A stretch of DNA of 64,000 nucleotides from Candidatus Curtissbacteria bacterium (GCA_016183325.1 JACPEV010000006.1:5883-69882); one strand, 5' to 3'; counted from the first letter of the stretch, positions 21,985-53,840 are shown. Notes: generated from the letters alone by a model not told the origin. Numbers and translations are program-made.

Positions 21985-23286
21985 TCAATTACTTAAACTA
22001 TCTATTAATTTATTGTTCAATATAAATTCCGCCACCTTCGTCCCCATAAATAAATTGCCGTTTTTACTGTAGTGAGCATCGAGCGCAAAATGCAAATCTC
22101 CATTTTGGTTTTTCCATTCTAAGCCGTCAAGTCGCGGATCATAAAAGTTTATCTCTAAATCTTTGGCAGCTTCAGAAAGTACTTCGTTAATTTCAAACGC
22201 TGATGAGCTGTTTGGATCTAATTTATATGTTTTTTGCAAATGATCCCAATCGCCTGCCTGAACTTGAGCTTTTGGAATATTTATCGTAAGCAAAAACACA
22301 GCTTTATGTTCGTTTGCTTGCCTTTTCATATCTGCAAGTATTACTTTTATCAAAGACCAGGAGTCTAAAACTTCTCTTGGCGGATTTTTTTGCGAAGCAA
22401 CCACCTCAAAAGGCCCTTGTACTAACTGTGCATCGGATAAGAAAAATCTCTCCTCTTTGACAAACCCCAATATGCTAATCCGAACATCATCAACCAACTT
22501 TTTGAAAAACTGATTTCCCAAGGATGCTTTTACAACCAAATGATATATATAAGTTTCTCGCACCAACTTCCCCAGCCAATTTCCCCCCATCCGATCTTTG
22601 GGATCGACAACTTTCAACTTTCCCGCTTCGCCCGCGACTATCGTCGACGCAGGCGCGAAGCGAGGCGAGCCACTTTCCACTTTGACTAACTTATTCTTAT
22701 ATGTATCTCCAACATCATTTGGCGAAAACGCCAAAATGACCATATCCGGTTGAAATTGCCAGACTTTTTCCCGAAGCGTCAACCACTGCTGATCAGTGCC
22801 ATATCCGGAAACTCCGAAATTGTAACTTTCGACCCTCCGGGTCGGTCTCTGACTCGGAGCAGTCTCTGACTCGGAGAAAGGCCCTTCTGGGCCGGAGGCT
22901 TTTTCCGCTAACTCGCGACTTAACTTTCTGGCCATTACTTTTTGCCAGGTATCGGCAAGTTCAACCTGCAATGCTTCTTCTTGAGAGTCTCCTAAAACGG
23001 CTATTCTATAAACATCACTAGCTTTATCATGAGTAAACTGATCATCGCGAAACCCATCGGAATTAATCGCAATCTCAACCGTCACACCGTCAGAAATGCT
23101 GTAAGGAAAAACAGCGTTGGGCTTATTCTCGTGCAAAAAAAGTGTTGAGGATTGTAACTTTGCCAAATTTTCGGGCACAGGAGTAAATAGTCGAAGCAAT
23201 ATTTCAAGTAAAATTAAGGCAGTCAACAAAGCCCAAAAAGAAAGTACAGCTCTTACAATAACTTTCTTCATCTGATATTTGATCAT
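21985..23286 (-). CDS. Membrane-anchored SGNH/GDSL-like hydrolase-fold protein with two repeat-derived insertions.
   Basis: N-terminal TM helix, then IAVLGDSQEEALQ, GVSGYGTDQQW, VILAFSPNDVGD (SGNH blocks I-III-like). Insertions are encoded by 22625-22672 (P4 palindrome) and 22844-22876 (15-nt tandem). Confidence 0.4.
   Translation of the reverse strand: MIKYQMKKVIVRAVLSFWALLTALILLEILLRLFTPVPENLAKLQSSTLFLHENKPNAVFPYSISDGVTVEIAINSDGFRDDQFTHDKASDVYRIAVLGDSQEEALQVELADTWQKVMARKLSRELAEKASGPEGPFSESETAPSQRPTRRVESYNFGVSGYGTDQQWLTLREKVWQFQPDMVILAFSPNDVGDTYKNKLVKVESGSPRFAPASTIVAGEAGKLKVVDPKDRMGGNWLGKLVRETYIYHLVVKASLGNQFFKKLVDDVRISILGFVKEERFFLSDAQLVQGPFEVVASQKNPPREVLDSWSLIKVILADMKRQANEHKAVFLLTINIPKAQVQAGDWDHLQKTYKLDPNSSSAFEINEVLSEAAKDLEINFYDPRLDGLEWKNQNGDLHFALDAHYSKNGNLFMGTKVAEFILNNKLIDSLSN
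22625..22672. repeat. Palindromic element P4 (GCTTCGCCCGCGACTATCGTCGACGCAGGCGCGAAGC) in frame inside the SGNH-like gene.
   Basis: Its reverse complement matches 40147-40190 inside the alkD-like gene (CGCCTGCGTCGACGATAGTCGCGGGCG). Confidence 0.65.
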
Positions 23287-35122: not shown

Positions 35123-35306
35123 TTCTCTTAGGACTTACGCACTTCGTGCCTGACTGTCATTCTGGCCCTAAGGTCCGGGTCTAGGACTTGTCCAGAATCT
35201 GAAGCTAATTTTGGAAACACTGCGTAAGTCCTGTTCTCTGAGTCTATCACAAAATTATCCAACTTAGAATCCACTTTTTCCAAAAATCAAATCATTTTGA
35301 ATCTGC

Positions 35307-35876
35307 ATGAATGGTAAAATAAGTGACATGGAATCAACCGACTCGGAAACTGCAACTTTAGCAGGAGGTTGTTTTTGGTGCACGGAAGCAGTTTTCAAAC
35401 GCCTTAAAGGTGTTCAATCTGTTACCTCCGGATATGCAGGTGGCCAGATGGACAAACCTTCATACGAAGCGGTCTCATCCGGCACAACCGGTCATGCCGA
35501 AGCAATTCAAATTATATTCGACCCCAAAATCATTTCTTATGAAAAACTACTCGAAGTCTTCTTCAAGCTTCACGATCCAACTACAATGAATCGTCAAGGA
35601 ACCGACGTGGGACATCAATATCGATCAGCCATCTTTTATCAAGACGAAAATCAAAGACAGATTGCCCTCTCACTAAAAGAAAAATTGGAAAAATCGGGAA
35701 TTTACCAAAACCCCATCGTCACCGAAATTCTCCCCTTTACCAATTTTTTCAAAGCCGAAGATTATCATCAAAACTTTTACGACAACAATAGATCATATGG
35801 ATATTGTCAAGTCGTGATCGATCCTAAAATTAAAAAATTAATGGAAGTATTTAAAAATGAGGTTAAATCATCCTAG
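35307..35876 (+). CDS. msrA: Peptide methionine sulfoxide reductase MsrA.
   Basis: Active-site GCFWCTE and conserved GYAGG, HDPTTMNRQGTDVGHQYRS. Confidence 0.85.
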   Translation: MNGKISDMESTDSETATLAGGCFWCTEAVFKRLKGVQSVTSGYAGGQMDKPSYEAVSSGTTGHAEAIQIIFDPKIISYEKLLEVFFKLHDPTTMNRQGTDVGHQYRSAIFYQDENQRQIALSLKEKLEKSGIYQNPIVTEILPFTNFFKAEDYHQNFYDNNRSYGYCQVVIDPKIKKLMEVFKNEVKSS

Positions 35877-35904
35877 AATTCTTAAATCAATATCGACCCC
35901 AAAA

Positions 35905-35924
35905 CCTGCCTGCCGGCAGGCAGG
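35905..35924 (-). terminator. Perfect 20-bp palindrome CCTGCCTGCCGGCAGGCAGG followed, on the minus strand, by TTTTGGGG. Likely terminator of the minus-strand relE/phd operon.
   Basis: Perfect palindrome, with a T-rich tract on the minus-strand side only. Located inside the first msrA-3'-end repeat copy. Confidence 0.5.
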
Positions 35925-35992
35925 TCCAAAAATTGTACAAGGAATTTAAAAGTGCAGTTAAATCAGATTGAAAGTTTCAACCGAAACTTAAT

Positions 35993-36250
35993 CTAGTAAG
36001 TTGTTGAAGTTCTTCTAATAATTGACGTAATTACAACTATTTTTTGATCCAAATAATAAAAAATTCGATAGTTGCCAACCCTTAGTCTATAACCGTCTGT
36101 CAATTTTTTGATGTGTTTGCCATCAGCCAGATATGGAGAAGCAACCAGGCGTGCCGAGATTGAGTTAAGAATGTTTGTCTGGGTGGATTGAGGAAATGAT
36201 TTTAGCTGTTTGACTGCGGATTTTTTGAATTCAACCTTAAACTTTGCCAC
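35993..36250 (-). CDS. RelE/ParE-family type II toxin.
   Basis: C-terminal YRLRVGNYRIFYYLDQKIVVITSIIRR, typical RelE/ParE. 85 aa. 14-nt overlap with the upstream antitoxin gene. Confidence 0.6.
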   Translation of the reverse strand: MAKFKVEFKKSAVKQLKSFPQSTQTNILNSISARLVASPYLADGKHIKKLTDGYRLRVGNYRIFYYLDQKIVVITSIIRRTSTTY

Positions 36251-36500
36251 TGGTGATATCTTCCAATGAGTAAGTTTTTTCAGCTTTAGTGGCTTTTTTG
36301 GAACGAGTCATCTCGAGTTCTTCCCATAAAGTTTCATTTTCGTCAATAATTGACTGGAAATATTTTGGCGAAACAATAACCGAAAGCTGATCGTTATTTT
36401 TAGTAACAACTACCACTTCGTCTTTTTTTTGGACGGCCTCAAAAAGCTGCTTAGCATTTTTTCTGACATCTGAAACGCTTTTAATTGTTGGTAATTGCAT
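36237..36500 (-). CDS. Phd/YefM-family antitoxin.
   Basis: 87 aa with Phd/YefM-like N-terminus (VRKNAKQLFEAVQKKDEVVVVTKNNDQ) and acidic C-terminus. Operonic with the RelE-like toxin. Confidence 0.6.
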   Translation of the reverse strand: MQLPTIKSVSDVRKNAKQLFEAVQKKDEVVVVTKNNDQLSVIVSPKYFQSIIDENETLWEELEMTRSKKATKAEKTYSLEDITSGKV

Positions 36501-36639
36501 AACAAATTTAGTATATAATTTATCTACAAATTTGTCAACATTTGGAATTGCCGTAAGAAAACTTTAGTTTGCTGAAAACCCTCGAATCTCGCGACTACGA
36601 GAAAAGGCTGCTAGGATAAACCATCAGTTTGTCATTCTG

Positions 36640-36735
36640 GCAGTTCGATATAACTCACTGCCCTTCAACTGCCCTGAGCGTAGTCGAAGGGCTTGTCCAG
36701 AATCCTTACTGAAAACAGATTCTGGAGTCGCTTCG
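36640..36735. repeat. Nested MITE: GTCATTCTGGC ... CTTGTCCAGAATC shell containing a GCCCTTCAACTGCCCTGAGCGTAGTCGAAGGGC core.
   Basis: Shell termini also at 15672-15697, 35155-35208 and (inverted) 40131-40203. Core motif CTGAGCGTAGTCGAAGGG is shared with 45326-45345 and others. Confidence 0.7.
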
Positions 36736-36976
36736 CTCCCCAGAGTGACAGTTCAATATAGGTTTTCACCAAGCTCAAAACTCGTCATCGACCCCAAAAT
36801 CCAGAAATGATATAAGGAATTTAAAAAAGAAGTTAAATCAGGCTAACCTTTTCATCCAGTACAAATTCGCAACCTCTTGTATTCCGATTTTTGCCAAGCT
36901 TTACGATTTTTACAAAAATCTAAGTCAGGAAATCACGACATTTCCGAAAACCAAGCGTTATACCTTAGGCCAAAGG

Positions 36977-37303
36977 TTGGATAGCCTAACTTTGGATATT
37001 TTTGAACTTTTATTTTCCGTGCCAAACTCTAAGAACAAATTAGAAGTTCTTTTACAAATTAGTATTAAGTTGGATCTCATAAAAATACTTTTAAGACTTA
37101 GCAAAGACACGCAAGCAATAAAGAACAACAAATATTTAGAACTGCAAGCAGTGCTTCAAGAAATAGGCAAGATGCTTGGCGGTTGGATTCGCTCCACCAA
37201 GCAAAGCTTCCCGATTAGAATCATCTTTCTAGAAACTACCGCGGGGAAGGCCCAAATGTGCGGATTGCCATCGTCACGGTTCCAGTCATTGACGTTCAGT
37301 TGA
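36977..37303 (+). CDS. Four-helix-bundle protein (23S rRNA IVS-protein family). Homology extends upstream to about 36820 without a canonical start, so it may be a pseudogene.
   Basis: The in-frame upstream translation NQANLFIQYKFATSCIPIFAKLYDFYKNLSQEITTFPKTKRYTLGQRL matches the N-terminal half of the family (FPKxxKY, LxxQLxR). An AAGGAA SD lies at 36813-36818, but the codon 8 nt downstream is AAG, not ATG. Confidence 0.4.
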   Translation: MDSLTLDIFELLFSVPNSKNKLEVLLQISIKLDLIKILLRLSKDTQAIKNNKYLELQAVLQEIGKMLGGWIRSTKQSFPIRIIFLETTAGKAQMCGLPSSRFQSLTFS

Positions 37304-37657
37304 TTGTCGGGGTGATTACGCCCAACGTTGGCAACGCTCGGGTCAACCTTATGAATGCTTTTCCGTCAACCAGTCTCACTGTGGCTTGACTGCTCTTACC
37401 ACTGTATTTTATTTTCTGAGTGTAACGAAGAAAACGAGATTGCGAAGCAATCTCCTTCGCCTCAGTATAAGAAATGCACTCGTAGTGTCTAGTAATTTTC
37501 TCTTTAGCGCACCCACGTACCGTATGGTACATGGCTCTGGCTGTAGAAGATTCTAGAGGTAGGCGCCACGTTTATGTAAATTAAGCGTGATCACTGCCTA
37601 ACATTTTTAACTTAACAAAAAATTTAGGGAGAACCAAGATACAAAAATTCAAATAAA

Positions 37658-38083
37658 TCATGCTTTTCTCTTTTTAAAATATTCCGGTAAAGTCCAAGCA
37701 AGAGTTTTGGAATGCACAATTCCTATTCCCCGAAACTTTTTAAGCTTAATTAAATCCTGATCAAGAGTAACTATTAAATCTGCCTCTCCAGAGACAGCAC
37801 ATTCCAAGATTTTGTTATCTTCAGGATCTCGCAAGATCACTGACACTTTTTCCTTGATTTCTACAACTTCTGCGATCTTTCTCACACTGGCGACGAAATA
37901 ATCAATATTTTCTTCTCTCCAGTGAAATTTATCTTTAAGTTTTTGGGTTAGTTCTGTGAGGATTTCTTCCGATGTGATAGCTGTTAAATCATTACTTCTG
38001 GTTACAAGCTCTATAATTTCTGCCGAAAAACTGTTCTTAAGCGCTGCGGCAATGTAGATATTGGTGTCAAGAACCACTCTCAT
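37658..38083 (-). CDS. PIN-domain toxin (TIGR00305-type VapC-like).
   Basis: N-terminal VVLDTNIYIAA acidic motif and C-terminal LECAVSGEADLIVTLDQDL. 4-nt overlap with the upstream antitoxin gene. Confidence 0.65.
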   Translation of the reverse strand: MRVVLDTNIYIAAALKNSFSAEIIELVTRSNDLTAITSEEILTELTQKLKDKFHWREENIDYFVASVRKIAEVVEIKEKVSVILRDPEDNKILECAVSGEADLIVTLDQDLIKLKKFRGIGIVHSKTLAWTLPEYFKKRKA

Positions 38084-38307
38084 CCGGCAATTCGCTCGAC
38101 ATCATCTTCTGTCTCTATCCTCATCCGACGGGCAGTCTCTCTTCCCCAAGCCCAGATTCTTGCCCATTCCTTATCGGATTTATAAGACCTAAATGCCTCA
38201 CGCATCAGCTCACTCTTTGTCTTATTCTCCTTCTTCGCCATGGCCTCAATCTGTTTTGCGATAGCGCGAGGAACGGAAATATTCATAATTACACGTTGAG
38301 TGCTCAT
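38080..38307 (-). CDS. Ribbon-helix-helix antitoxin partner of the PIN toxin.
   Basis: 75 aa. N-terminal beta-strand region VIMNISVPRAIAKQIEAMAKK is RHH-like. Operonic overlap with the PIN gene. Confidence 0.55.
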   Translation of the reverse strand: MSTQRVIMNISVPRAIAKQIEAMAKKENKTKSELMREAFRSYKSDKEWARIWAWGRETARRMRIETEDDVERIAG

Positions 38308-38374
38308 TTGTAATAAATTGTATTACAATATAACATATTGGTCAACCAGGAAAGATCGTCATCGACCCCAAAAT

Positions 38375-38812
38375 TCAAGAAAATTCTTCCGGTGTAGCGA
38401 AGGCAACGGTTTTGATTTTGGAAAAATCGACATCATAGGTTATTATTTTTGAGTTTTTTGGAACTTGCGTGGCAATGAGGCAGTCGGCGTATTTTATATT
38501 TAATCTCCGGAAAGTTTTCATCGCCGCCCTGGTATTCGTCTTTTCTATCAAAGTAAGGTTCCTAAGACCAAGAATTTTAAAAATAGCCTCAAGAACTTCC
38601 TTTTTAGAAAATTCATAAACTCTTGTAAGAACAAATAGGATTTCAAGCAAAACTATATTCGAAGTATAAGGGCGAATTTTAGCGCCCTTTTCAATTAGTT
38701 CCAAAAGATGGACGCAGTCGCCAAGCTTCTTTTTATCATCAGCCGTAAAGTATCTTATAAAAATGCTTGTTTCGAGGAAGACCTTATCCACCTTACTTAC
38801 CATTTTCCCCAA
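38375..38812 (-). CDS. PIN-domain toxin (VapC-like).
   Basis: VFLETSIFIRY N-terminal Asp region and a PIN-type C-terminal acidic residue set. 16-nt overlap with the upstream AbrB-type antitoxin gene. Confidence 0.6.
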   Translation of the reverse strand: MGKMVSKVDKVFLETSIFIRYFTADDKKKLGDCVHLLELIEKGAKIRPYTSNIVLLEILFVLTRVYEFSKKEVLEAIFKILGLRNLTLIEKTNTRAAMKTFRRLNIKYADCLIATQVPKNSKIITYDVDFSKIKTVAFATPEEFS

Positions 38813-39039
38813 GAGTAATCTATATGATCTCTGATTTTTTCAGCCGGTATTGGCTTTTTTACTTTAAACTTCCCGGCCAGAGATAAAATGCCCTTCTTCT
38901 CATCAATTGGCTCTATGATTATTTTTCTCTTTTCTGACCTAATAATAGCCTTGCCGTGTTTAAGGCCAATTTTTTTTCTGATAGAAACCGGAATATGAAC
39001 CTGGAATTTAGGAGTAATAGTAGTATAATCACTCATCAA
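38797..39039 (-). CDS. AbrB/MazE/SpoVT-family antitoxin (VapB-like).
   Basis: Swapped-hairpin motif KFQVHIPVSIRKKIGLKHGKAIII. Confidence 0.6.
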   Translation of the reverse strand: MMSDYTTITPKFQVHIPVSIRKKIGLKHGKAIIRSEKRKIIIEPIDEKKGILSLAGKFKVKKPIPAEKIRDHIDYSWGKW

Positions 39040-39192
39040 TACATATTGTAAGCTATTGATTATATTTTGTCAATAATAACTATCTTACATCGCCATCGAC
39101 CCCAAAATCAAAAACTTAACAACTTAACTAATCTTCAATGCTGATACAATGGATATGAATAATGATACAATCAAAACAAAGGGGGTGAAAAA

Positions 39193-39765
39193 ATGTTAAG
39201 TACTCTTGCAGAAAAAATCAAAGATACTTTAATTACTATCATTGAAGCATCTGGCGATGTCGTCGCAACTGCCAGGGACACAGTTAAAAAGACAATTGTA
39301 GATACAGTTAGAGGTGCCGGTGAAGTCACGTCTGGCGCCATGGGAACTGTTTCCGACGTTGTCACAGGTGGAGCTGCTGCCGCTTCCAAATCCGCTGTGT
39401 CAACTATTGATGGAGTTGCCGGTGTTGTCGAAGGAGCTATCGAAGCAGCGCAAGAAGTTGGAGCAGACATTGCCAGTGCCATTGTCGAGTCTTCAGAAGG
39501 CGCTATCAAGGGAGTTTCTGATGTCGGTGGGGATCTCGGCGATGCTGCCGTCGGTGCGCTCAGAGGCACGATTCAAGCCGCCTCAGTTGTTGGCACAGAT
39601 ATCACAGATGCGACAACTAAAGCTGTAGTCGGAGTTCTAAAAGCAGCCGACGAGATCGGTTCAGAAGCTGGTGGCACAGTCAGAAAAGCTCTTCTTTCGG
39701 CAGCCGCCTTACCTAGAGAAATAATCGAGGCAGCCATTGGAAAAGCTGACGGCGGCAAAAAGTAA
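39193..39765 (+). CDS. Ala/Gly/Val-rich protein built of ~11-residue amphipathic repeats (apolipoprotein/LEA/phasin-like).
   Basis: Periodic 11-mers (VGADIASAIVE, SEGAIKGVSDV, GGDLGDAAVGA, LRGTIQAASVV ...). Local GC content is clearly above the window average. The antisense ORFs here are spurious. Confidence 0.45.
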   Translation: MLSTLAEKIKDTLITIIEASGDVVATARDTVKKTIVDTVRGAGEVTSGAMGTVSDVVTGGAAAASKSAVSTIDGVAGVVEGAIEAAQEVGADIASAIVESSEGAIKGVSDVGGDLGDAAVGALRGTIQAASVVGTDITDATTKAVVGVLKAADEIGSEAGGTVRKALLSAAALPREIIEAAIGKADGGKK

Positions 39766-39773
39766 TTTAGGCA

Positions 39774-40625
39774 TTATTTTCCTAGATAAAACTTCTTTTT
39801 TCCGGCTTCAAATCTCTCAATTGCATAGCGAAGCATCGTTCGTGGCATTTGTTTGTAGTGTTTTCTCAAAAACTCTTCCTCAACCTGCTGATCTCTCTTG
39901 CCCACTTCCCTGAGCATCCACCCTACCGCCTTATGTATCAAATCATGCTTATCAGAAAGCAACATTTCGCCAATTTTCAGAGTCCACGTAAAATCTTTCT
40001 TTTCTTTAATGAATTGAAATGTAGCAATAATGGCAATCCTTCGCTCCCATAGATTATTTGATCTTGCCAGTTTTTCTAAAATGTCATTCTGGGGATCCGG
40101 CGAAGCCGGAGACTCCAGTTTTCTAGCTTTGATTCTGGACAAGCTCGCCTCACTCCGCGCCTGCGTCGACGATAGTCGCGGGCGGAGCGGGCCAGAATGA
40201 CGAGAATTTATCAAATACCCGCCCACAATTTTATCGGCCGATAAATCAACTAAGTCCCAATTATTAATGTACTTTGTATTCTTAAGATAAAAATCGAAAA
40301 TTAATCTCTTCACCTCCGAGGAGCCCCCTTCGACTTCGCTCAGGGCAAGCGAGCTCACCTCGGAGGTGTTTTGGATCCGTTCTACCAAAATTAAAAGTGC
40401 GATTAACCTTTCTTCGTGAATCTTCGATCTCAAAAGTTTCTCAATCTCGCCAAATGAAAGGTCTTTAAATTTTTGGGCAATCTTCCTAGACTGTGGCACC
40501 GTAATTCCCAAAAACACATCCCCTTCCCCATATTGCCCTTTCCCCGTTTTAAAAAATCTTGCCAAAATCTTAGCTTTCTTCTTATTTTTCAGTTTTTTTA
40601 AATCCCTCCTCAACTCGAAAATCAT
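39774..40625 (-). CDS. DNA alkylation repair enzyme (AlkD/AlkC HEAT-repeat family) with two in-frame MITE insertions.
   Basis: N-terminal LKKLKNKKKAKILARFFKTGKGQYGEGDVFLGITVPQSRKIAQKF and C-terminal WERRIAIIATFQFIKEK...HKAVGWMLREVGKRD match PF08713. The extra segments SEVEGG... and SGPLRPRLSSTQARSEASLSRIKARKLESPASP are encoded by 40083-40203 and 40309-40370. Confidence 0.6.
   Translation of the reverse strand: MIFELRRDLKKLKNKKKAKILARFFKTGKGQYGEGDVFLGITVPQSRKIAQKFKDLSFGEIEKLLRSKIHEERLIALLILVERIQNTSEVSSLALSEVEGGSSEVKRLIFDFYLKNTKYINNWDLVDLSADKIVGGYLINSRHSGPLRPRLSSTQARSEASLSRIKARKLESPASPDPQNDILEKLARSNNLWERRIAIIATFQFIKEKKDFTWTLKIGEMLLSDKHDLIHKAVGWMLREVGKRDQQVEEEFLRKHYKQMPRTMLRYAIERFEAGKKKFYLGK
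40083..40203. repeat. Nested MITE inside the alkD-like gene: a GTCATTCTGG/CCAGAATGAC shell (inverted orientation) enclosing the P4 core CGCCTGCGTCGACGATAGTCGCGGGCG.
   Basis: GATTCTGGACAAGC ... GCCAGAATGAC termini at 40131-40203. The P4 core is the reverse complement of 22634-22660. A further GTCATTCTGGGG unit lies at 40084. Confidence 0.7.
40309..40370. repeat. P1 palindromic element (CACCTCCGAGGA ... CACCTCGGAGGTG) with a CTTCGACTTCGCTCAGGGC core, in frame inside the alkD-like gene.
   Basis: Termini at 40311-40322 and 40356-40368. The core is the reverse complement of the CTGAGCGAAGTCGAAGGG motif. Confidence 0.7.
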
Positions 40626-45287: not shown

Positions 45288-45453
45288 GAACCATTGCACA
45301 CCGGTCTTTCGATTAATCACTCAAGACCTGATTCTGAGCGTAGTCGAAGAACCGGTGTGCTATTATCCGCGCCTATCTCTCTTATCAGCGCTTCAAAGAT
45401 AACCAATCATTTCTTTTTGGGCTTTTTTGAAATTCTTGGATATTCTCTGGACG

Positions 45454-45563
45454 AACTACCACGACTTAACAGTCGTGGTAGGTTCAGGCTACGCCTTCGG
45501 CGAGTACGTAATTGTTCAATTCACCCACGGGTAAAAACCCGTGGTACTTGCGAACAATTATAG
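45454..45563 (+). mobile_element. 110-bp structured repeat element (MITE-like), copy A. It supplies the ATG and first 17 codons of the downstream femAB-like ORF.
   Basis: Near-identical to 57086-57196 in the same orientation. Three internal hairpins: CCACGACTTAACAGTCGTGG, CACCCACGGGTAAAAACCCGTGGTA, and AATTGTTCAA..TTGAACAATT. Confidence 0.75.
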
Positions 45564-46597
45564 ATTTCAACAATCGGGAAGTAGAACATATTTTTCCTGA
45601 AATACCAAACCCACCAACAAAATTTTTCTCCGTCCGAGAATGGTATCATTCATATGTGAAATATCCCCCCCATCTTTTGCAATCACCGCAGTGGGCTCAA
45701 TTTCGTCAAAGGTGGGGTACGCGCGCGGTAAAAGTAGGCAAAGCATACCTTACCATTCACCCCGTGCCACTGCTTCCTTATACCGTTGGGTACATTCCAC
45801 GTGTTTTCCCCAAAGATATTGATTGGCAACTTCTCAAAAAAGAAGCAGCCAGGAATCGCTGCATCTTTGTCAAAATCGAACCCAATAGCGCCTCGTTTAA
45901 TCCGCCTTTTTCTTTTGACGTCAGGCCCGGCGAACGGATGTTTGCTCACGCCACGTATGTTATTGACCTACGAAAGACTGAAAAAGAATTGCTGACCGCA
46001 ATGCACTATAAAACTCGCTACAACATTGGTTTGGCCAAAAAAAGGGGAATAAAGATAAAAGTAGGCCATTCCAATAAAATGTTAACCGAATTTCTAGACC
46101 TTTTTCACAAAACGTCCTTGCGCCACAAAATTGCAATTCACCCTGACGCTTATTACAAAACACTCCTTGATGTTTTTAGCACAAAGGGCAATGCCCAAAT
46201 TATTACTGGCTACTACAACAGAAAGCCGTTGGCGTCAATGATGTTTGTCATCTTTAACGACACTATTTTTTACCCGTATGGTGGATCCACACTTCTTTAT
46301 AAAGAAAAAATGGCTCCATATTTAGTTATGTGGGAAGGAATATTGTTGGGGAAAAAACGTGGCTGTTTGTACTTTGACATGTGGAATTGTCTTCTGCCCG
46401 AACAAGAGAGTCCTTCTCACCCATGGTACGGATTTCACCGGTTTAAAAAAGGGTTTAACGGTGGACTACTTCGGTTCGCTGGAGCCTATGACGTAGTGTT
46501 CAATGATCCCCTTTACTCTCTTTTTACGACACTCAACCACTTACGTTGGGCAATTCTTAAAATCCTTTTGGCTCTAAGGAAAGTAACCAAACGATAA
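45512..46597 (+). CDS. FemAB-family peptidoglycan peptide-bridge aminoacyltransferase.
   Basis: FemABX landmarks SPQWAQFRQRWG, TVGYIPRV, KTRYNIGLAKKRGIKIKV, HPWYGFHRFKKGFNGGL. The N-terminus is encoded by the MITE, so the true start is uncertain. Confidence 0.6.
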   Translation: MFNSPTGKNPWYLRTIIDFNNREVEHIFPEIPNPPTKFFSVREWYHSYVKYPPHLLQSPQWAQFRQRWGTRAVKVGKAYLTIHPVPLLPYTVGYIPRVFPKDIDWQLLKKEAARNRCIFVKIEPNSASFNPPFSFDVRPGERMFAHATYVIDLRKTEKELLTAMHYKTRYNIGLAKKRGIKIKVGHSNKMLTEFLDLFHKTSLRHKIAIHPDAYYKTLLDVFSTKGNAQIITGYYNRKPLASMMFVIFNDTIFYPYGGSTLLYKEKMAPYLVMWEGILLGKKRGCLYFDMWNCLLPEQESPSHPWYGFHRFKKGFNGGLLRFAGAYDVVFNDPLYSLFTTLNHLRWAILKILLALRKVTKR

Positions 46598-49238: not shown

Positions 49239-49393
49239 CTCTCAATCAGTGTAACCCCTGCACGAACTTTATGGGTGATGGGTAAGTCCCCGTGTCTAAC
49301 GCGGCAGACAAGTCTGGCCGAGTTTGAGCCGATGTTTATGTAGTTGCCTTGCAAGTTGCGGACTCAGTTTATTACACTTTAAGCTCAGAAATT

Positions 49394-49978
49394 TCAATAA
49401 GGAATTTCAAACAAACGAGTGTTTCGGGACGATATTAAATTTTGCAGTGATTCTTTTCCTCGAAGGTGTGCATCCCCTCCAATATGAACTCCTACTGAGT
49501 TGGGGAAAGTGTTTGCTACTTTGTCTATCGCTTTTGCCATAAACTTATTTCTTTCCACATTGTCGGCCAATTTTTTAAGTGTCTCCTCATCCAAGGCACC
49601 AGAATCATTCCAAACCACTGAAGGATCCTCAAGGTCAGTAATATTCACTGAGGTAACCTCTTCCAGGGATCCATCATATAAGTCTACAAAATAGAGTGGT
49701 ATATTGTTCTTTTTGCAATAAATTATAGCTGCTATATATTCTGCTCCAGGAGGAGGTTTTTCTAGATACTCTTGCTCTAACCCTTCAAGCTCATTCGCCT
49801 TTGCTCTAAGTGCTCGACCAAAGAAAGACTTGTTGGTAATATCATGCAACCCCACTTCTAGCGTAACAAACCCTGGACTCAATCGTTCCAATATTTGCAT
49901 TACATACCTAAAATTTTTCTCTGCAACCCACAATTCCGAATGTGTAACGCCAACCAGTCCAATCTCCGACCCTTCCAT
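49394..49978 (-). CDS. TraB/GumN-family protein.
   Basis: IGLVGVTHSE and VHIGGDAHL resemble the TraB family GTAHVS and HVGG..HL motifs. Confidence 0.35.
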   Translation of the reverse strand: MEGSEIGLVGVTHSELWVAEKNFRYVMQILERLSPGFVTLEVGLHDITNKSFFGRALRAKANELEGLEQEYLEKPPPGAEYIAAIIYCKKNNIPLYFVDLYDGSLEEVTSVNITDLEDPSVVWNDSGALDEETLKKLADNVERNKFMAKAIDKVANTFPNSVGVHIGGDAHLRGKESLQNLISSRNTRLFEIPY

Positions 49979-50161
49979 TAAATTTAATTATATACGATTT
50001 GGCACCAGCATTCCCAGCGCCAATGATCTGCTTCGCAGAACAAGAGCTGCACTGCAGGGCAAAGGTGGAAGACGTTTTTTCTAGAGACAGAGGAGGAGTT
50101 TGAGCCAGTGTTTATTTAGCACTCATGGATAAAATCAGACGCTGCTTGATAAAATACGACA

Positions 50162-50779
50162 ATGGCGACTAAAGAAAGGTTCGTTGGTGTATCTTTTGAC
50201 GACGGTCCTAATTCACAAAATATTCAAGAGATTCTAGCTATCCTGAGAGAGAACAATTGCCAGGCAACTTTCTTTTGGATTGCCGAATTTGCCAAAAAAT
50301 TTTCTGACCAAGATCGGAACTTATTTTCAAAAATCATCAGGGAATTAAAGGTATCCGAACATGAAATTGGCTTACATGCACCGTCCGACTACGCCCCGAC
50401 TTTTTTATCAAGAGCTTACTCTCAATTCTCAAAAGAAGAAATAAAAATCGCTATTGCTGATCTTGAGGAACTTACAGGTCAAAAAGTTCGACTGTATAGA
50501 CCTCATTACCTACTCCAACCCGCCTCAATTATCTTTGCCAGGCAACTTGGATTATCAACTGTGTTCGGTGATGCGATTCATTATGCCAGTGCTGACGCTT
50601 CAACAGAAGTGCAAATTAAAAAGTTTTCTGGAGCAAGAAGTGGAAGTATTTTAATTTTCCACGATGGCACAACCCTTCAACGAAAGACAACCCATATTCT
50701 GGAAGTATTACCACAAGTGTTAGATAATCTAAAAGGATTAGGGCTGACACCAACTAAAGCTTCTGCAGTTTTAAGCTAA
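50162..50779 (+). CDS. CE4 polysaccharide deacetylase (NodB-homology domain).
   Basis: VGVSFDDGP (motif 1), HAPSDY, RPHY, ILIFHDG (motif 5). 205 aa. Confidence 0.75.
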   Translation: MATKERFVGVSFDDGPNSQNIQEILAILRENNCQATFFWIAEFAKKFSDQDRNLFSKIIRELKVSEHEIGLHAPSDYAPTFLSRAYSQFSKEEIKIAIADLEELTGQKVRLYRPHYLLQPASIIFARQLGLSTVFGDAIHYASADASTEVQIKKFSGARSGSILIFHDGTTLQRKTTHILEVLPQVLDNLKGLGLTPTKASAVLS

Positions 50780-50919
50780 CATAGGCATACTTTTGGAGAC
50801 AGAGGAGGAGTTTGAGCCGATATTTGATTTAGCTTGAATTTAAGAAGTACAATTCTGCCTTGTGGAACGCTTAGCACAATTAAAGGTAGAAATAAGTTCA
50901 GAGGGAAAAACAAGTCTTC

Positions 50920-51300
50920 TTGACAAGGCTTCGAAATCGCCCAACCGACCTTGATGATCGTCGAGGAGTTGTTACATGGCGCAGAAGCAGTATATATTTC
51001 CATGCACTCCAAGACTTAAGGCTCGTTGACTTTGCAAGAAGAGCTCATGATGGTGAGGAAGGCAAAGAGTTACCTGAACTTGTGCAAAACGCTCAGGCAT
51101 GTTTTGTCAAAGACTTTGATATATATTTCGCGGGCTTCCCAAAAGAAGAAACAGCGATGTCCAGTCTATTTCAAGAGATATTTGATACTGGGACTTCCTT
51201 TGAGTGGCAAAATGACCTAGAAAGGGTCGAGGGGCTCGAAGAAGCTTTTTCAGAACTCTATAGGGAACAAATACGACCTTGGGTTGCGCTAGAAAAATAG
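50920..51300 (+). CDS. Conserved small ORF of unknown function, paralogue A of 56451-56828. Start uncertain.
   Basis: The two copies differ by a mix of synonymous and nonsynonymous substitutions in this frame, consistent with coding. No ATG at the 5' end (TTG in the ORF track). Confidence 0.3.
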   Translation: MTRLRNRPTDLDDRRGVVTWRRSSIYFHALQDLRLVDFARRAHDGEEGKELPELVQNAQACFVKDFDIYFAGFPKEETAMSSLFQEIFDTGTSFEWQNDLERVEGLEEAFSELYREQIRPWVALEK

Positions 51301-51450
51301 CGAGCACGCCGATATTTTATAGAGAGACGATTTTCGAACTAAATTTCTATTTCAATTTTCCAACTTAAAGGTTTCAATGTCAGAAAGTTAAGATTGGAAG
51401 TTTTAGTCAAAACAATTTATTTAGAGAAATTTTTTCCCTTTAGCTCTCCG

Positions 51451-51882
51451 CTAGTTTAAATCTTCGACCTTTTGAACATAATCATTCTCTTGAATTGTTT
51501 CGATTACTATACCTTTTAGAGAAGGTTCCTCAATAAATACATCAATGATTGCTGAGATTTCGGGGGAAGAGGTTTTGTCGCTTTTTTTTGAATTTTCTTC
51601 TAGCAATGATTTAGAAACATACCAAGTGCCGTTAACTCCTTCTATTTTTTGGAATTCTTTGATTAAAACTTCGGCTTGAGTGTTTGAAACATCAGTTTTT
51701 AAATAGACTCTTATGACTTTCTTGTCTTTATATCTTTGTTCTGTAATTTTATCATCAAATTCTTCATAGGATCTTCTAGTTACCATTAGCCTATCAGCAA
51801 CTACTGCACCTATAATCAAAATTAGAGCTAATATTGCAAGAAAAATTGAACTCAAACCTTTTTGAAATGCAGAGGTTCCCAT
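51451..51882 (-). CDS. Membrane-anchored protein resembling the FtsX extracellular domain. No permease domain.
   Basis: N-terminal TM helix, then KVIRVYLKTDVSNTQAEVLIKEFQKIEGVNGTWYVSKSLLEE, similar to the FtsX ECD. Confidence 0.35.
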   Translation of the reverse strand: MGTSAFQKGLSSIFLAILALILIIGAVVADRLMVTRRSYEEFDDKITEQRYKDKKVIRVYLKTDVSNTQAEVLIKEFQKIEGVNGTWYVSKSLLEENSKKSDKTSSPEISAIIDVFIEEPSLKGIVIETIQENDYVQKVEDLN

Positions 51883-51964
51883 TTATTATTCTTAAATTCT
51901 TCCCACTGACTATTTTCTAGAAATACCTCATAGTAAGCCAAACAATCTTTTTCACGAACTCAAT

Positions 51965-52360
51965 TCACCACACTGACTGAACGTGAGGGTATTTTCTAAT
52001 TCGCTGGTCACTTGTTATCAAAGTAGCACCCATCTCAACCGCAGTAGCCGCAATAATCCTATCAGCAGGGTCGCGCCCTACGGTTTCCGAAAGCTGTACA
52101 GATTTTGCAGCAATTATATTATTAACCGGCACGAAATTAATAAATTTAAGCTGCTCTACCTCTTCAAGCCAAGCATCAACATCCTTCGATAGTTCAAGCC
52201 TACCTTTCTTAACGAGCAAATAAATTTCCCAAATACTCATCGATGAAACATGGATACCGTTCTTTTTAATTTCAGAATTGATATACTTTGCTGCTTTTTG
52301 TGGAAGTTTTTCCGGATTGCCGACAAGATAAATGAGCGCGTTCGTATCCAAAACTATCAT
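51965..52360 (-). CDS. PIN-domain toxin VapC.
   Basis: MIVLDTNALIY N-terminus and the DRIIAATAVEMGATLITSD C-terminal PIN motif. Likely start is the ATG at 52360. Confidence 0.65.
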   Translation of the reverse strand: MIVLDTNALIYLVGNPEKLPQKAAKYINSEIKKNGIHVSSMSIWEIYLLVKKGRLELSKDVDAWLEEVEQLKFINFVPVNNIIAAKSVQLSETVGRDPADRIIAATAVEMGATLITSDQRIRKYPHVQSVW

Positions 52361-52587
52361 TTTAACGCTTTCCAATCTTCAAGCCCTACCGGCTCATTTG
52401 GATCATCGTAACGAAGAACCGAACCTCGCAGAGACTTAAGGACCGCTTTGGAATCCTGGTCAAACGGGGTAATTTTTACAACCGGCTTACCGGCGTGAGT
52501 AACAATAAGAGGCTTTTTATCCTTTTCCACCTTGCGCAAGTATTCAAGAAGCTGGGATTTTAACTGAGATTTTGAAACTGTCTGCAT
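52357..52587 (-). CDS. Phd/YefM-family antitoxin.
   Basis: MQTVSKSQLKSQLLEYLRKVEKDKKPLIVTHAGKPVVKITP, operonic 4-nt overlap with VapC. Start at ATG 52585-52587. Confidence 0.6.
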   Translation of the reverse strand: MQTVSKSQLKSQLLEYLRKVEKDKKPLIVTHAGKPVVKITPFDQDSKAVLKSLRGSVLRYDDPNEPVGLEDWKALK

Positions 52588-52667
52588 AATGTGACCATGG
52601 TACCATGACCATAGGCATTTTGTCAAGAATTAAGGAAAAATCCAGAAAACGCGCCACGATTTTCGAA

Positions 52668-53099
52668 CTAATTTTTTGATTTAGATAATAATCTAAATGC
52701 TTTAGTAATTGCCTCTTTGTAAAAGAGTGGCATATTTAGACCTTCGACTTCTTCAACTGAAAATTTCTCAAACTTTGCTTTACCTGCTTCACTTTCAATC
52801 TCAAATCTATCTGTTCTGTTTATGAGTCGACAGAGGTATGAAATTACTAAAACACCTTTCGATTCATCTTGGGATTTCTCGATTTGATAAAGATTGGCTT
52901 GGACAATATCAGCAACTTCTACTTCAAAACCAAGCTCCTCTTTTAGCTCTCTGACAACTGCTTTCTCTGGTTGTTCCCCACGATCAAGTTTTCCTCCCGG
53001 GAGTTCCCATTCACCTCTCTCGTTCTTTCTCAACCACACTTTATCATCCTCAAAAACAATTCCTTTTACGGAAATAGGCACAGAATATGCAATATTCAC
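52668..53099 (-). CDS. NUDIX hydrolase.
   Basis: Nudix box GGKLDRGEQPEKAVVRELKEELGFEV. Confidence 0.7.
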   Translation of the reverse strand: MNIAYSVPISVKGIVFEDDKVWLRKNERGEWELPGGKLDRGEQPEKAVVRELKEELGFEVEVADIVQANLYQIEKSQDESKGVLVISYLCRLINRTDRFEIESEAGKAKFEKFSVEEVEGLNMPLFYKEAITKAFRLLSKSKN

Positions 53100-53142
53100 A
53101 ACGTTGAAAGTATATCAGAAGCCGAAGGAGTCGAAGGGCTAA

Positions 53143-53279
53143 CTAGCCTCAGTGATTACCGCCTCACATGTCCACAATGGTGGAGACAACCTTTCTAGCA
53201 TTTGCAGCGTCCAGTTGTGATAATTGTCCTGAAGGTTAATCAACGCAACAAGAGGACCGGTATCTAAAATTGTCTTCAT
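53143..53279 (-). pseudogene. Truncated PIN-toxin gene. First 45 codons only, near-identical to the 5' end of 57810-58205.
   Basis: MKTILDTGPLVALINLQDNYHNWTLQMLERLSPPLWTCEAVITEAS-stop. Homology ends where GGAGTCGAAGGGCTAA (MITE motif) abuts. Confidence 0.6.
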
Positions 53280-53473
53280 CCCCGTCTTCTACTGCCAATG
53301 TCGCGAAGATATTTTTTATTTACAGATAAATCAGACGGCCGTCTTAACGGTTGCAAATGCACCTTAAGTGCCTCACGCACAATACGCCCTTTTGAACGAC
53401 TGGTTTTGCGCGATTCTTCTTCTAAAGCAGCGGTCGTTGCCGGATCAAGCCTAATTGTGATTGTTTGATTCAT
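53276..53473 (-). CDS. Ribbon-helix-helix (CopG-type) antitoxin, the intact copy.
   Basis: MNQTITIRLDPATTAALEEESRKTSRSKGRIVREAL, 65 aa. Its stop overlaps the ATG of the truncated PIN gene. Confidence 0.6.
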   Translation of the reverse strand: MNQTITIRLDPATTAALEEESRKTSRSKGRIVREALKVHLQPLRRPSDLSVNKKYLRDIGSRRRG

Positions 53474-53645
53474 AATAAATTGGTAACTCTTACAAAGTCG
53501 GTGGGGCCTCTCTTTTTCAAGATGATTTTGAGGTTATATTAAGAACAAACTGGTTCGCCAAGTGGGACGATTCCGGCCTAACTAATGCTTTTCGCTCGCT
53601 CAGAATGAGATTGACCAAATTCAAACAATACTTTAAGCTAAAACT

Positions 53646-53837
53646 GTGAGCAAAAAAAGGAAAATATCAATTAAAAAATATCTCTTTCTCGCCCTTCTTG
53701 CGATAATTGCCTATCTTATCTATGCGTTTATTTGGTATCAAAAAAATACTAGTTATAAGCCAGAACTTTCAAAAGTCACGGATCAAGAAATAATCGAAGA
53801 CCTACAAAGATTAGTCGATCAAAAAAACCAAAAATAA
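53646..53837 (+). CDS. Hypothetical small membrane protein.
   Basis: 63-aa ORF with one TM helix and a GTG start. Confidence 0.25.
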   Translation: MSKKRKISIKKYLFLALLAIIAYLIYAFIWYQKNTSYKPELSKVTDQEIIEDLQRLVDQKNQK

Positions 53838-53840
53838 TAA

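What the first reader, a model, noticed from the sequence alone, without database searches (positions are those of the whole stretch)
35817..39128. Tandem toxin-antitoxin cassette array delimited by decaying direct copies of the msrA 3' end
Downstream of msrA, three consecutive TA cassettes (four TA units: RelE/Phd; four-helix-bundle gene + PIN/RHH; PIN/AbrB) are each separated by a copy of the motif (C)ATCGACCCCAAAAT at 35892, 36787, 38361 and 39095. The motif is homologous to the last codons of msrA (ATCGATCCTAAAAT at 35817-35876). Copies 1 and 2 retain more of the msrA tail (GGAATTTAAAA..G..GTTAAATCAG). Serial duplication of the insertion target at the end of msrA is consistent with repeated site-specific integration of TA cassettes at one hotspot. 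This resembles an integron-like cassette platform, but no integrase is in the window.
Basis: seen in the sequence. Interest (0 to 1): 0.75.

Follow-up and report, generated by a model that had tools for sequence, protein, structure and literature searches.

The report
Toxin-antitoxin cassettes stacked behind msrA
Behind the msrA gene of an uncultivated Curtissbacteria (CPR) bacterium, three small self-transcribed toxin-antitoxin modules are each bounded by a copy of the end of msrA. This is the expected scar of repeated insertion at one hotspot, a known kind of event seen here in an unusually miniature form with no integrase in view.

Summary
The 14-mer ATCGACCCCAAAAT is exact at 36787, 38361 and 39095. 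It is also exact at 35892 once a 20-nt palindrome is removed. The msrA tail at 35817 carries it with two synonymous changes. Copies 1 and 2 are full 21-codon msrA tails. Copies 3 and 4 keep only about 6 nt, the core and at most about 12 nt more.

Between the copies lie three compact modules, each holding a complete type II toxin-antitoxin operon with its own strong promoter: ParE/Phd, RHH/PIN_3 and AbrB/PIN. Module 2 also carries an Avd-like four-helix gene that lacks a canonical start. That makes three TA pairs, not four.

No recombinase was found in the window. The junctions do not fold like integron attC sites and have no dif-like symmetry. The motif is not a common repeat elsewhere.

One related metagenomic contig (MsrA 76% identical) independently shows a compact 1.28-kb integrase-less insert followed by a second, coding-like copy of the msrA 3' end.

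[quoted passage not shown] I rate it a new variant of a known kind, of moderate interest. The recombinase and any current activity are unproven.

The parts
35307..35876 (+). msrA (peptide methionine sulfoxide reductase), intact. The public record calls a 182-aa product starting at M8 (35328).
   Evidence: Pfam PMSR, E=7.5e-68, full length. 100% identical to P0001, Candidatus Curtissbacteria.
35517..35530 (+). Internal look-alike of the core (TTCGACCCCAAAAT, encoding FDPKI). It is a coding resemblance, not an insertion scar.
   Evidence: The same internal resemblance occurs in the msrA genes of L003, L024, L029 and L119.
35811..35876 (+). T0, the tail now attached to msrA (VVIDPKIKKLMEVFKNEVKSS*). 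Its core, 35817-35830, is ATCGATCCTAAAAT, with two synonymous differences from the other copies.
35886..35974 (+). T1, a full msrA-tail copy (IDPKIQKLYKEFKSAVKSD*). Its core is split by a 20-nt perfect palindrome at 35905-35924.
   Evidence: The 116-nt T1 region folds with z=-4.64, and the palindrome forms a 9-pair stem in that fold.
35993..36500 (-). Module A TA operon: Phd/YefM antitoxin (36237-36500) and ParE/RelE-family toxin (35993-36250), overlapping by 14 nt.
   Evidence: Pfam PhdYeFM_antitox 1.1e-10 and ParE_toxin 1.2e-07.
36510..36538 (-). Promoter-like site of module A (TTGACA-17-TATACT).
   Evidence: 11 of 12 consensus matches.
36620..36760 (.). MITE-like repeat inserted between the module A promoter and the next core. 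It shares motifs with 35155-35200 and 40079-40144.
   Evidence: Repeat families D10, D19, I13 and I15. Logan contigs break here.
36781..36849 (+). T2, a full msrA-tail copy colinear with T0 (LVIDPKIQK*YKEFKKEVKSG*) with one in-frame stop. Exact core at 36787-36800.
36854..37303 (+). bAvd-like four-helix-bundle gene. The Pfam-matched N-terminal 28 codons lie upstream of the first canonical start codon (36977), so it is probably a pseudogene or uses an unusual start.
   Evidence: Pfam bAvd 1.3e-16, residues 14-114 of the translation from 36854. ORF list.
37304..37657 (.). About 350 nt of unassigned sequence in module 2. It contains a promoter-like site (37491-37464, minus strand) followed by a hairpin (37454-37436).
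   Evidence: No Pfam hit, no Rfam hit, no protein homologue. Promoter and terminator scan.
37658..38307 (-). Module B TA operon: RHH/CopG antitoxin (38080-38307) and PIN_3 toxin (37658-38083), overlapping by 4 nt.
   Evidence: Pfam RHH_1 4e-09 and PIN_3 5.6e-20.
38317..38345 (-). Promoter-like site of module B (TTGACC-17-TACAAT), 15 nt from the next core.
   Evidence: 10 of 12.
38355..38374 (+). T3, a minimal copy (ATCGTC plus the exact core at 38361-38374). The stop codon of the module C PIN gene abuts the core directly.
38375..39039 (-). Module C TA operon: AbrB/MazE-type antitoxin (38797-39039) and PIN toxin (38375-38812).
   Evidence: Pfam MazE_antitoxin 5.7e-05 and PIN 8.8e-12. PIN is 99% identical to P0121.
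39045..39073 (-). Promoter-like site of module C (TTGACA-17-TACAAT), 21 nt from the last core.
   Evidence: 11 of 12.
39089..39120 (+). T4, the last copy (IAIDPKIKNLTT*), with the exact core at 39095-39108. Similarity to msrA ends about 12 nt after the core.

Best explanation
The array is the product of at least three successive insertions at one recombination site. That site lies in the last conserved coding stretch of msrA, the IDPKI-coding core (C)ATCGACCCCAAAAT.

**Proposed mechanism (inferred).** Each incoming circular element carried its own copy of the msrA end, as 3'-end-restoring integrative elements do. Crossover in the core left msrA intact and left one more core, with or without a tail, at each element border. 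This is tandem accretion.

**What remains (shown).** Three integrase-less mini-modules of 0.7-1.6 kb remain. Each is essentially a promoter plus a type II toxin-antitoxin operon read towards msrA.

**Two readings I cannot separate.** The modules may be remnants of larger elements, trimmed in a streamlined genome and kept because TA pairs resist loss. Or they may be non-autonomous elements moved by a recombinase encoded elsewhere.

**Shown:** the anatomy, the core identity, intact TA operons with promoter-like sites, and a second independent case.
**Inferred:** site-specific recombination, the circular intermediates, and the recombinase acting in trans.
For: 1. **A sharply bounded identical core.** All six pairs among T1-T4 are 14/14 identical in the core. 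They match at only 5-11 of the next 15 nt and 2-5 of the preceding 6 nt.
2. **The shared spelling is not a coding coincidence.** Among 19 msrA genes retrieved by protein similarity, the IDPKI core has 14 different spellings, and only 2 of 19 use this one.
3. **T1 and T2 are not recent copies of the resident tail.** They are consensus-type CPR MsrA tails (VIDPKIQKLYKEFKxEVK), colinear with T0 but only about 65-70% identical to it.
4. **Same orientation, common left edge.** All copies face the same way. Similarity to msrA starts about 6 nt left of the core in T2-T4 and at the core itself in T1, as expected where element arms join at one crossover site.
5. **The modules are compact.** The three strongest promoter-like sites in 35.2-39.3 kb are those of the three TA operons, each 15-25 nt from the next core apart from a MITE-like insertion in module A. 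The module C PIN stop codon abuts a core.
6. **An independent case.** In L119 (MsrA 76% identical) msrA is followed by a compact 1280-bp insert without an integrase, then a 114-nt second copy of the msrA 3' end at 83% identity, E=9e-18. Differences between the two copies fall 4/3/12 by codon position, with 9 synonymous and 4 nonsynonymous codon changes. Both therefore evolved as coding sequence before being brought together.
7. **The motif is specific to msrA.** A 22-mer scan of JGI metagenomes found only three true msrA tails and three GC-rich chance hits.
8. **The process is described in the literature.** Tandem accretion and integrase-less CIMEs flanked by att sites at the 3' end of a target gene are reviewed in PMC5704250.
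Against: - No recombinase is in the window. Pfam covered all ORFs of at least 70 aa in 34-64 kb and ten unassigned ORFs in 0-34 kb. The remaining ORFs were judged housekeeping by reading only.
- No presence/absence polymorphism or circular junction could be examined. Contigs from the same population are all colinear.
- No element with an integrase next to a CPR msrA tail was found. About 50 other msrA loci lack duplications.
- An 18-mer scan of IMG/VR gave only chance hits, and the array has no match in the phage or plasmid collections.
- The core shows no dyad symmetry of the kind expected for a simple recombinase site.
- The core of the msrA-attached copy differs at two positions. This needs later synonymous drift, or a crossover confined to its right-hand AAAAT.
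- 'Element 0' would be only 15 nt long.
- In L119 the duplicated segment is longer (41 codons) and its IDPKI core is not identical between the two copies. A different crossover point must be assumed there.
Confidence: 0.6

Rival explanations
1. Integration was by homologous recombination, with no dedicated recombinase. Small circular DNAs that had picked up an msrA 3' fragment integrated by a RecA-type single crossover (Campbell-type). That duplicates the homologous segment on both sides of the insert. The identical core is simply the longest run of identity available for crossover between diverged tails.
For: - In L119 the duplicated segment is 114 nt at 83% identity with no privileged core. 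This fits a generic single crossover.
- No integrase is seen next to any of the four modules.
- The IDPKI region is the most conserved part of the tail.
Against: - A 14-15 nt identity is very short for RecA-dependent recombination.
- The resident tail T0 shares at most 5-nt identical runs with the other copies around the core.
- T3 and T4 carry almost no msrA homology beyond the core, so they offer no substrate for homologous exchange.
- The model does not explain how separate elements came to carry the same 14-mer spelling, which only 2 of 19 msrA genes use.
Confidence: 0.15
2. The tail copies arose locally, by slippage or unequal exchange that duplicated the end of msrA. The TA operons arrived between them by unrelated events. 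Gene conversion keeps the cores alike.
For: - T0 and T1 lie almost head to tail, 75 nt from start to start.
- Tandem TA operons without any msrA motif are common in related metagenomic contigs (L117 and L118).
Against: - T1 and T2 differ from T0 by about 30% yet keep consensus-like codons, which does not fit recent local copies.
- In L119 the two copies differ mainly at third codon positions, 12 of 19 differences. That indicates separate histories as coding sequence.
- Three unrelated insertions each landing exactly at a core border is unlikely.
- Conversion confined to 14 nt is ad hoc.
Confidence: 0.08
3. It is a true integron or a Xer/dif-module system. The repeats would be attC or dif-like sites, served by IntI or by the host Xer recombinases.
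For: - The modules are small cassettes, often TA genes, bounded by short sites with no recombinase inside. Integron arrays and Acinetobacter dif modules look like this too (PMC6449649 and PMC13141974, listed).
Against: - Junctions O2-O4 have no significant single-strand structure (z = -0.2, +0.7, -1.8).
- No IntI-type recombinase was found in the window.
- The sites are direct repeats homologous to a coding gene end.
- They lack 11-6-11 dyad symmetry, and the only palindrome is TCG-N4-CGA.
- GC skew does not change sign here, so this is not a terminus or dif region.
Confidence: 0.03
4. Assembly artefact. Repeated 15-mers and MITE-like repeats caused unrelated fragments of a metagenome bin to be chained together.
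For: - The source is a metagenome-assembled genome.
- Independent short-read contigs break inside the MITE-like repeat and at 36892.
Against: - Logan contigs from five separate runs are colinear at 99.9-100% and between them span every junction.
- L068 covers 35194-36678, L080 covers 36715-38336, and L078 covers 36892-40112.
Confidence: 0.02

Closest known systems
Tandem accretion of integrative elements and CIMEs (cis-mobilizable elements), for example the ICESt1/ICESt3 family at the 3' end of fda in Streptococcus thermophilus
   Same: - Direct repeats derived from the 3' end of a conserved target gene bound each unit.
- The gene stays intact.
- Several units sit in tandem.
- The units lack integration and transfer genes but keep their att sites (PMC5704250).
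   Different: - The units here are far smaller (0.7-1.6 kb) and consist essentially of one TA operon.
- No intact partner element or integrase is known.
- The host is a CPR bacterium and the target is msrA.
- Derivation from ICEs or IMEs is not shown.
Integron cassette arrays, including TA cassettes of sedentary chromosomal integrons
   Same: - Compact cassettes in series, each ending at a short recombination site.
- TA cassettes carry their own promoters.
- No recombinase inside the cassettes.
   Different: - No attC-type folded sites.
- No adjacent IntI or attI.
- The sites are homologous to a gene end.
- The closest TA homologues elsewhere do not carry the site.
Acinetobacter dif modules (pdif-flanked modules moved by host XerC/XerD)
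   Same: - Sub-kb to 2-kb modules, frequently TA pairs, bounded by short sites.
- Presumed to be moved by a recombinase encoded elsewhere (PMC6449649, PMC13141974).
   Different: - Those sites are 28-bp XerC/XerD sites in alternating inverted orientation, on plasmids.
- Here the repeats are direct, lack dyad symmetry, sit on the chromosome and are anchored to msrA.
Prophage integration at msrA (Lactobacillus crispatus phage PhiM247)
   Same: msrA serves as an attachment site, with long imperfect att repeats (PMC10763512).
   Different: - That site covers the 5' end of msrA.
- The element is a complete prophage with an integrase.
- It is a single insertion.

Membership tests
3'-end-restoring site-specific integration (tandem accretion / CIME) | The insert is flanked by direct repeats that duplicate part of the 3' end of the target gene, and the gene stays intact. 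| tested here: met
   msrA has a full-length PMSR domain. Four downstream same-strand copies of its end are present. A second case exists in L119.
3'-end-restoring site-specific integration (tandem accretion / CIME) | An identical core (crossover segment) is shared by all att copies, with arms that differ. | tested here: met
   The core is 14/14 in all pairs of T1-T4, against 5-11 of 15 and 2-5 of 6 in the adjacent bases. This spelling occurs in 2 of 19 msrA genes. T0 differs at 2 synonymous positions.
3'-end-restoring site-specific integration (tandem accretion / CIME) | A tyrosine or serine recombinase of matching specificity, in the element or elsewhere in the genome. | tested here: inconclusive
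   None was found among the window ORFs scanned. The rest of the genome was not available.
3'-end-restoring site-specific integration (tandem accretion / CIME) | Excision or integration demonstrated: empty sites, circles or polymorphism. | not testable with these tools
   Only colinear contigs of the same population were retrievable. Relatives are at most 79% identical in MsrA and not syntenic.
Integron | attC sites: imperfect inverted repeats that fold as single strands. | tested here: not met
   DNA folding of junctions O2, O3 and O4 gave z = -0.2, +0.7 and -1.8.
Integron | An IntI integrase with attI next to the array. | tested here: not met
   No recombinase domain in ORFs on either side of the array.
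Xer-dependent dif modules / IMEX | 28-bp sites with two roughly 11-bp inverted arms around a 6-bp centre; modules flanked by inverted sites. | tested here: not met
   The repeats are direct. The only symmetry is TCG-N4-CGA. GC skew shows no terminus here.
Type II toxin-antitoxin operons | A small antitoxin gene upstream of and overlapping a toxin gene of a known family, with its own promoter. | tested here: met
   Phd/ParE, RHH/PIN_3 and AbrB(MazE)/PIN by Pfam. Overlaps are 14, 4 and 16 nt. Promoter-like sites match 10-11 of 12. Toxicity was not tested.
Diversity-generating retroelement (because of the Avd-like gene) | A reverse transcriptase and a template/variable repeat pair next to avd. 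| tested here: not met
   No RT domain was found in the translations scanned, and self-BLAST shows no repeat partner for 37.2-37.65 kb.

The most novel reading that the evidence does not exclude
The cores are still active sites of an integron-like gene-capture platform in CPR bacteria, anchored on the conserved end of msrA. Promoter-bearing mini-cassettes (mostly TA or defence genes) would be excised as circles and re-inserted at any core by a recombinase encoded elsewhere in the genome or on a helper element. The L119 insert would then be another cassette of the same traffic using a neighbouring site in msrA.
Probability: 0.15. Interest if true: 0.75.

Novelty: new variant of a known kind. 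Interest (0 to 1): 0.5.

Why it matters
- **Little is known about CPR mobile elements.** Mobile elements of CPR/Patescibacteria are poorly described. These genomes are small and streamlined, so a four-site stack of insertion scars is unexpected ballast.
- **A recurrent hotspot.** The locus, together with the independent L119 case, points to the conserved end of msrA as a recurrent insertion hotspot in Microgenomates.
- **Minimal surviving units.** What survives, or moves, there can be as small as one toxin-antitoxin operon.
- **If the sites are still active.** This would be a simple gene-capture system working without integron machinery, and a possible handle for genetic tools in organisms that cannot yet be manipulated.
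- **If the sites are fossils.** The array is a clean natural example of TA modules outliving the elements that brought them.

Tried and rejected
- **Chance motif.** Rejected by the shuffles.
- **Common repeat family.** Rejected. The 18-mer in IMG/VR gave 9 hits, all unrelated coding contexts. The 22-mer in JGI metagenomes gave three msrA tails and three GC-rich chance hits.
- **Integron attC or dif site.** Rejected on structure and symmetry.
- **DGR.** Only an Avd-like gene is present, with no RT and no template/variable repeat pair.
- **Presence/absence comparison.** Failed. The exact MsrA occurs only on short contigs of the same population. The nearest other MsrA proteins are at most 79% identical, on short or non-syntenic contigs.
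- **67 msrA loci from GTDB genomes.** No tail duplication in any. Two weak hits, in L002 and L029, were chance.
- **IMG/VR proviruses with msrA at their edge.** The one inspected (L089) is not CPR-like: it is GC-rich and its msrA tail reads VIPPKLQKL rather than IDPKI. msrA there is followed by non-coding DNA and phage tail genes, not by an msrA-tail att site.
- **Homologues of the module C PIN toxin.** They sit between metG and a PBP gene, or in other TA tandems, without the core.
- **The unassigned sequence at 37.3-37.65 kb.** No Pfam, Rfam or protein match.
- **Phage and plasmid collections.** No match to the array.
- **The 32-nt repeat in the second TA island (56843, 57765, 59460, 60169).** I first considered it as another att site. 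It reads as a conserved promoter on the minus strand (TTGACT-17-TATGTT/TATATT), judged by reading the sequence.

Full report
**Source and setting.** The window comes from a Candidatus Curtissbacteria (CPR, Microgenomates) metagenome-assembled genome. The MsrA protein is 100% identical to a public Curtissbacteria protein on a 73-kb contig. GC content is about 41%. msrA (35307-35876, +) is intact, with a full-length PMSR domain.

**Checking the observation.**
- The 14-mer ATCGACCCCAAAAT is exact at 36787, 38361 and 39095.
- It has one mismatch at 35892 and two at msrA's own tail, 35817.
- At up to two mismatches there are 8 matches against 0.62 expected, and no shuffle reached 8. The 15-mer with the leading C gives the same three exact sites.
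- Reading the sequence shows that the copy at 35892 is exact once a 20-nt perfect palindrome (35905-35924, unique in the window) is removed.
- With that removal, copy T1 reads IDPKIQKLYKEFKSAVKSD*.
- Copy T2 reads LVIDPKIQK*YKEFKKEVKSG* and is colinear, codon for codon, with the resident tail T0, VVIDPKIKKLMEVFKNEVKSS*.
- T3 keeps only ATCGTC plus the core. The stop codon of the next gene abuts the core.
- T4 keeps ATCGCC, the core and about 12 further similar bases.
- A sixth look-alike inside msrA (35517, FDPKI) is a coding resemblance also seen in other msrA genes.
- Independent Logan contigs from five sequencing runs are colinear at 99.9-100% and jointly span all junctions. The array is therefore not an assembly artefact.

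**What lies between the copies.**
- Module A holds a Phd antitoxin and a ParE/RelE-family toxin.
- Module B holds a bAvd-like four-helix-bundle gene, about 350 nt of unassigned sequence, and an RHH antitoxin with a PIN_3 toxin. The first 28 domain codons of the Avd-like gene precede any canonical start codon.
- Module C holds an AbrB/MazE-type antitoxin and a PIN toxin.
- So there are three TA pairs, not four.
- All three operons are on the minus strand, with overlapping gene pairs.
- The three best sigma-70-like sites in 35.2-39.3 kb are exactly their promoters, matching 11, 10 and 11 of 12 consensus positions.
- Each promoter lies 15-25 nt from the next core, apart from a MITE-like insertion in module A.
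- The modules are therefore very compact: core, optional tail, toxin, antitoxin, promoter, next core.

**Why the core matters.**
- Among T1-T4 every pair is 14/14 identical in the core.
- The same pairs match at only 5-11 of the next 15 bases and 2-5 of the preceding 6.
- Shared coding does not explain this. In 19 msrA genes retrieved by protein similarity, the IDPKI core is spelled 14 different ways, and this spelling occurs in 2 of 19.
- T1 and T2 resemble the consensus tail of CPR MsrA proteins, VIDPKIQKLYKEFKxEVK.
- They are only about 65-70% identical to T0 at the DNA level, so they are not recent local copies of the resident tail.
- Similarity to msrA begins about 6 nt left of the core in T2-T4, and at the core itself in T1.
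- An identical short core, divergent arms, a common left edge, direct orientation and an intact target gene together form the classical signature of integration into the 3' end of a gene by an element that carries a replacement end.
- Several such cores in series are the signature of tandem accretion (PMC5704250).

**A second, independent case.**
- Among the nearest MsrA relatives with usable contigs, L119 (Logan SRR22387896, MsrA 76% identical) has msrA ending at 2862.
- A compact 1280-bp insert follows. It encodes two small membrane proteins and a DUF2283 protein, with no integrase.
- Two bases after the last stop codon there is a second copy of the final 38 codons of msrA: 114 nt, 83% identical, E=9e-18.
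- The 19 differences fall 4/3/12 by codon position, with 9 synonymous and 4 nonsynonymous codon changes.
- Both copies therefore evolved as coding sequence in different lineages before being joined, as expected if one came with the insert.
- The duplicated segment is longer there, and its IDPKI core is not identical between the two copies. The crossover point in that element must lie elsewhere, probably near the left edge in the AEDYHQNYY-coding stretch.
- About 50 other msrA loci show no duplication. The phenomenon is recurrent but not common.

**Tests of other ideas.**
- *Integron.* The junctions have no attC-like single-strand structure, with z-scores of -0.2, +0.7 and -1.8. No recombinase domain appears in any ORF of at least 70 aa between 34 and 64 kb, or in ten unassigned ORFs of the first half. 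The remaining ORFs of 0-34 kb look like housekeeping genes on reading only.
- *dif modules.* The sites are direct repeats without 11-6-11 symmetry, and GC skew shows no terminus here.
- *Common repeat.* An 18-mer scan of IMG/VR gave nine unrelated hits. A 22-mer scan of JGI metagenomes gave three genuine msrA tails and three GC-rich chance matches.
- *A site travelling with the TA genes.* Homologues of the module C toxin at 72-82% identity sit between metG and a penicillin-binding-protein gene in other Curtissbacteria, or in other TA tandems, without the core. The site belongs to msrA and the insertion event, not to the TA genes.
- *Known phages or plasmids.* No match.
- *DGR.* The Avd-like gene has no reverse transcriptase or repeat partner.

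**Most likely mechanism.**
- *Shown:* an intact msrA; four further same-strand copies of its end sharing an identical core; three compact TA operons with strong promoter-like sites between them; one independent parallel case.
- *Inferred:* circular elements carrying an msrA-end mimic recombined with the core, one after another, through a site-specific recombinase that is not in the window.
- The present modules are integrase-less. They may be remnants trimmed in a streamlined genome and retained because TA pairs resist loss, or they may be non-autonomous units moved in trans.
- The compactness of modules A and C and of the L119 insert leans towards small units.
- The start-less Avd-like gene and the unassigned 350 nt in module B show that some decay has occurred.
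- The two synonymous differences in the core attached to msrA could be later drift. Alternatively, the exchange may be confined to the right-hand AAAAT, so that the left half of T0 is native and the left halves of the other cores are element arms.
- The palindrome in T1 is followed on the minus strand by TTTTGGGG. It may stop the ParE operon transcript from running antisense into msrA. That is speculation: the terminator scan did not call it.

**Rival mechanisms.**
- Single-crossover homologous integration (0.15). It fits L119, but it is hard to reconcile with 14-nt identity and with the near-absence of homology in T3 and T4.
- Local duplication plus unrelated TA arrivals (0.08).
- A true integron or Xer system (0.03).
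- Misassembly (0.02).

**Comparison with known systems.**
- The closest known kind is tandem accretion with CIME-type remnants at the 3' end of a conserved gene.
- The array works like integron arrays or dif modules, in that small cassettes are bounded by short sites and carry no recombinase. It fails the defining features of both.
- msrA is a known phage attachment site in Lactobacillus crispatus, but at its 5' end and for a complete prophage (PMC10763512).
- New here are the host group (CPR), the target (the msrA terminus), and the miniature, TA-only, multi-unit form.
- I rate it a new variant of a known kind, interest 0.5.

Noticed in passing
window 49300-60300: A second TA-rich island. It holds at least four TA operons: PIN/Phd at 51965-52626, PIN/AbrB at 55538-56181, PIN_3/RHH at 57117-57672, and PIN at 57810-58205. 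They are interleaved with segmental duplications. The polysaccharide-deacetylase gene (50162-50779) recurs with an internal deletion at 58545-59026. A 126-aa ORF (50920-51300) recurs at 56451-56828. A PIN/antitoxin fragment (53140-53485) matches 58066-58339 at 95-99%. No msrA-type core is involved.
   Followed up: partly
window 56843-56874, 57765-57796, 59460-59491, 60169-60200: Four copies of a 32-nt motif (..GGAATTTAGAAGTCAAAAA). On the minus strand it reads as a near-consensus promoter (TTGACT-17-TATGTT/TATATT) in front of different genes. This appears to be a reused promoter module, not a recombination site.
   Followed up: partly
window 49320, 50096, 50808, 56339, 58574, 59008: Six copies of a 24-60-nt motif (GGAGACAGAGGAGGAGTTTGAGCCGATATTT..). 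They flank the deacetylase gene copies and precede the duplicated 126-aa ORF. Function unknown; it has no Rfam match at the gathering threshold.
   Followed up: no
window 35150-35200, 36620-36760, 40079-40200, 22622-22670; also 45450-45564 = 57083-57197: MITE-like short repeats (GTCATTCTGG...CCAGAATC type). Two of them appear to sit in frame inside the DNA-alkylation-repair gene (39774-40625), which matches its Pfam domain in two separate stretches. A 115-nt repeat is shared at 94% between 45450-45564 and the 3' end of a PIN_3 gene at 57083-57197.
   Followed up: partly
window 35905-35924: A perfect 20-nt GC-rich palindrome, unique in the window, is inserted exactly inside the first downstream core. 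It may be a minus-strand terminator or a recombination footprint.
   Followed up: partly
window 37436-37491 (minus strand): A promoter-like site (TAGACA-16-TATACT, 10 of 12) is followed at once by an 8-bp hairpin with a T-rich tail, inside the unassigned part of module B. It may be a small RNA or a leftover regulatory region.
   Followed up: no
window 36892 (ends of L078 and L079): Logan contigs from two different runs stop at exactly 36892, about 40 nt past the T2/Avd border. A contig from a third run reads through. This may reflect a repeat elsewhere in the genome or a population variant at that border.
   Followed up: no
window 11828-15493: The SufB-like ORF is 1221 aa long. On reading, it seems to carry two intein-like insertions with homing-endonuclease-type segments. 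Not tested with any tool.
   Followed up: no
L089-L104 (IMG/VR proviruses): About 16 predicted proviruses of about 21-46 kb, from non-CPR-like bacteria, have msrA within the first 540 nt of the contig edge. In the one inspected (L089), msrA is followed by about 450 nt of non-coding DNA and phage tail genes. The true attachment site is probably a neighbouring feature rather than msrA.
   Followed up: partly
L117 and L118 (ENA contigs): The closest relatives of the module C TA pair (77-82% identical) also sit directly behind another PIN_3 TA operon. Tandem TA operons thus seem common in these CPR lineages even without msrA-derived repeats.
   Followed up: partly
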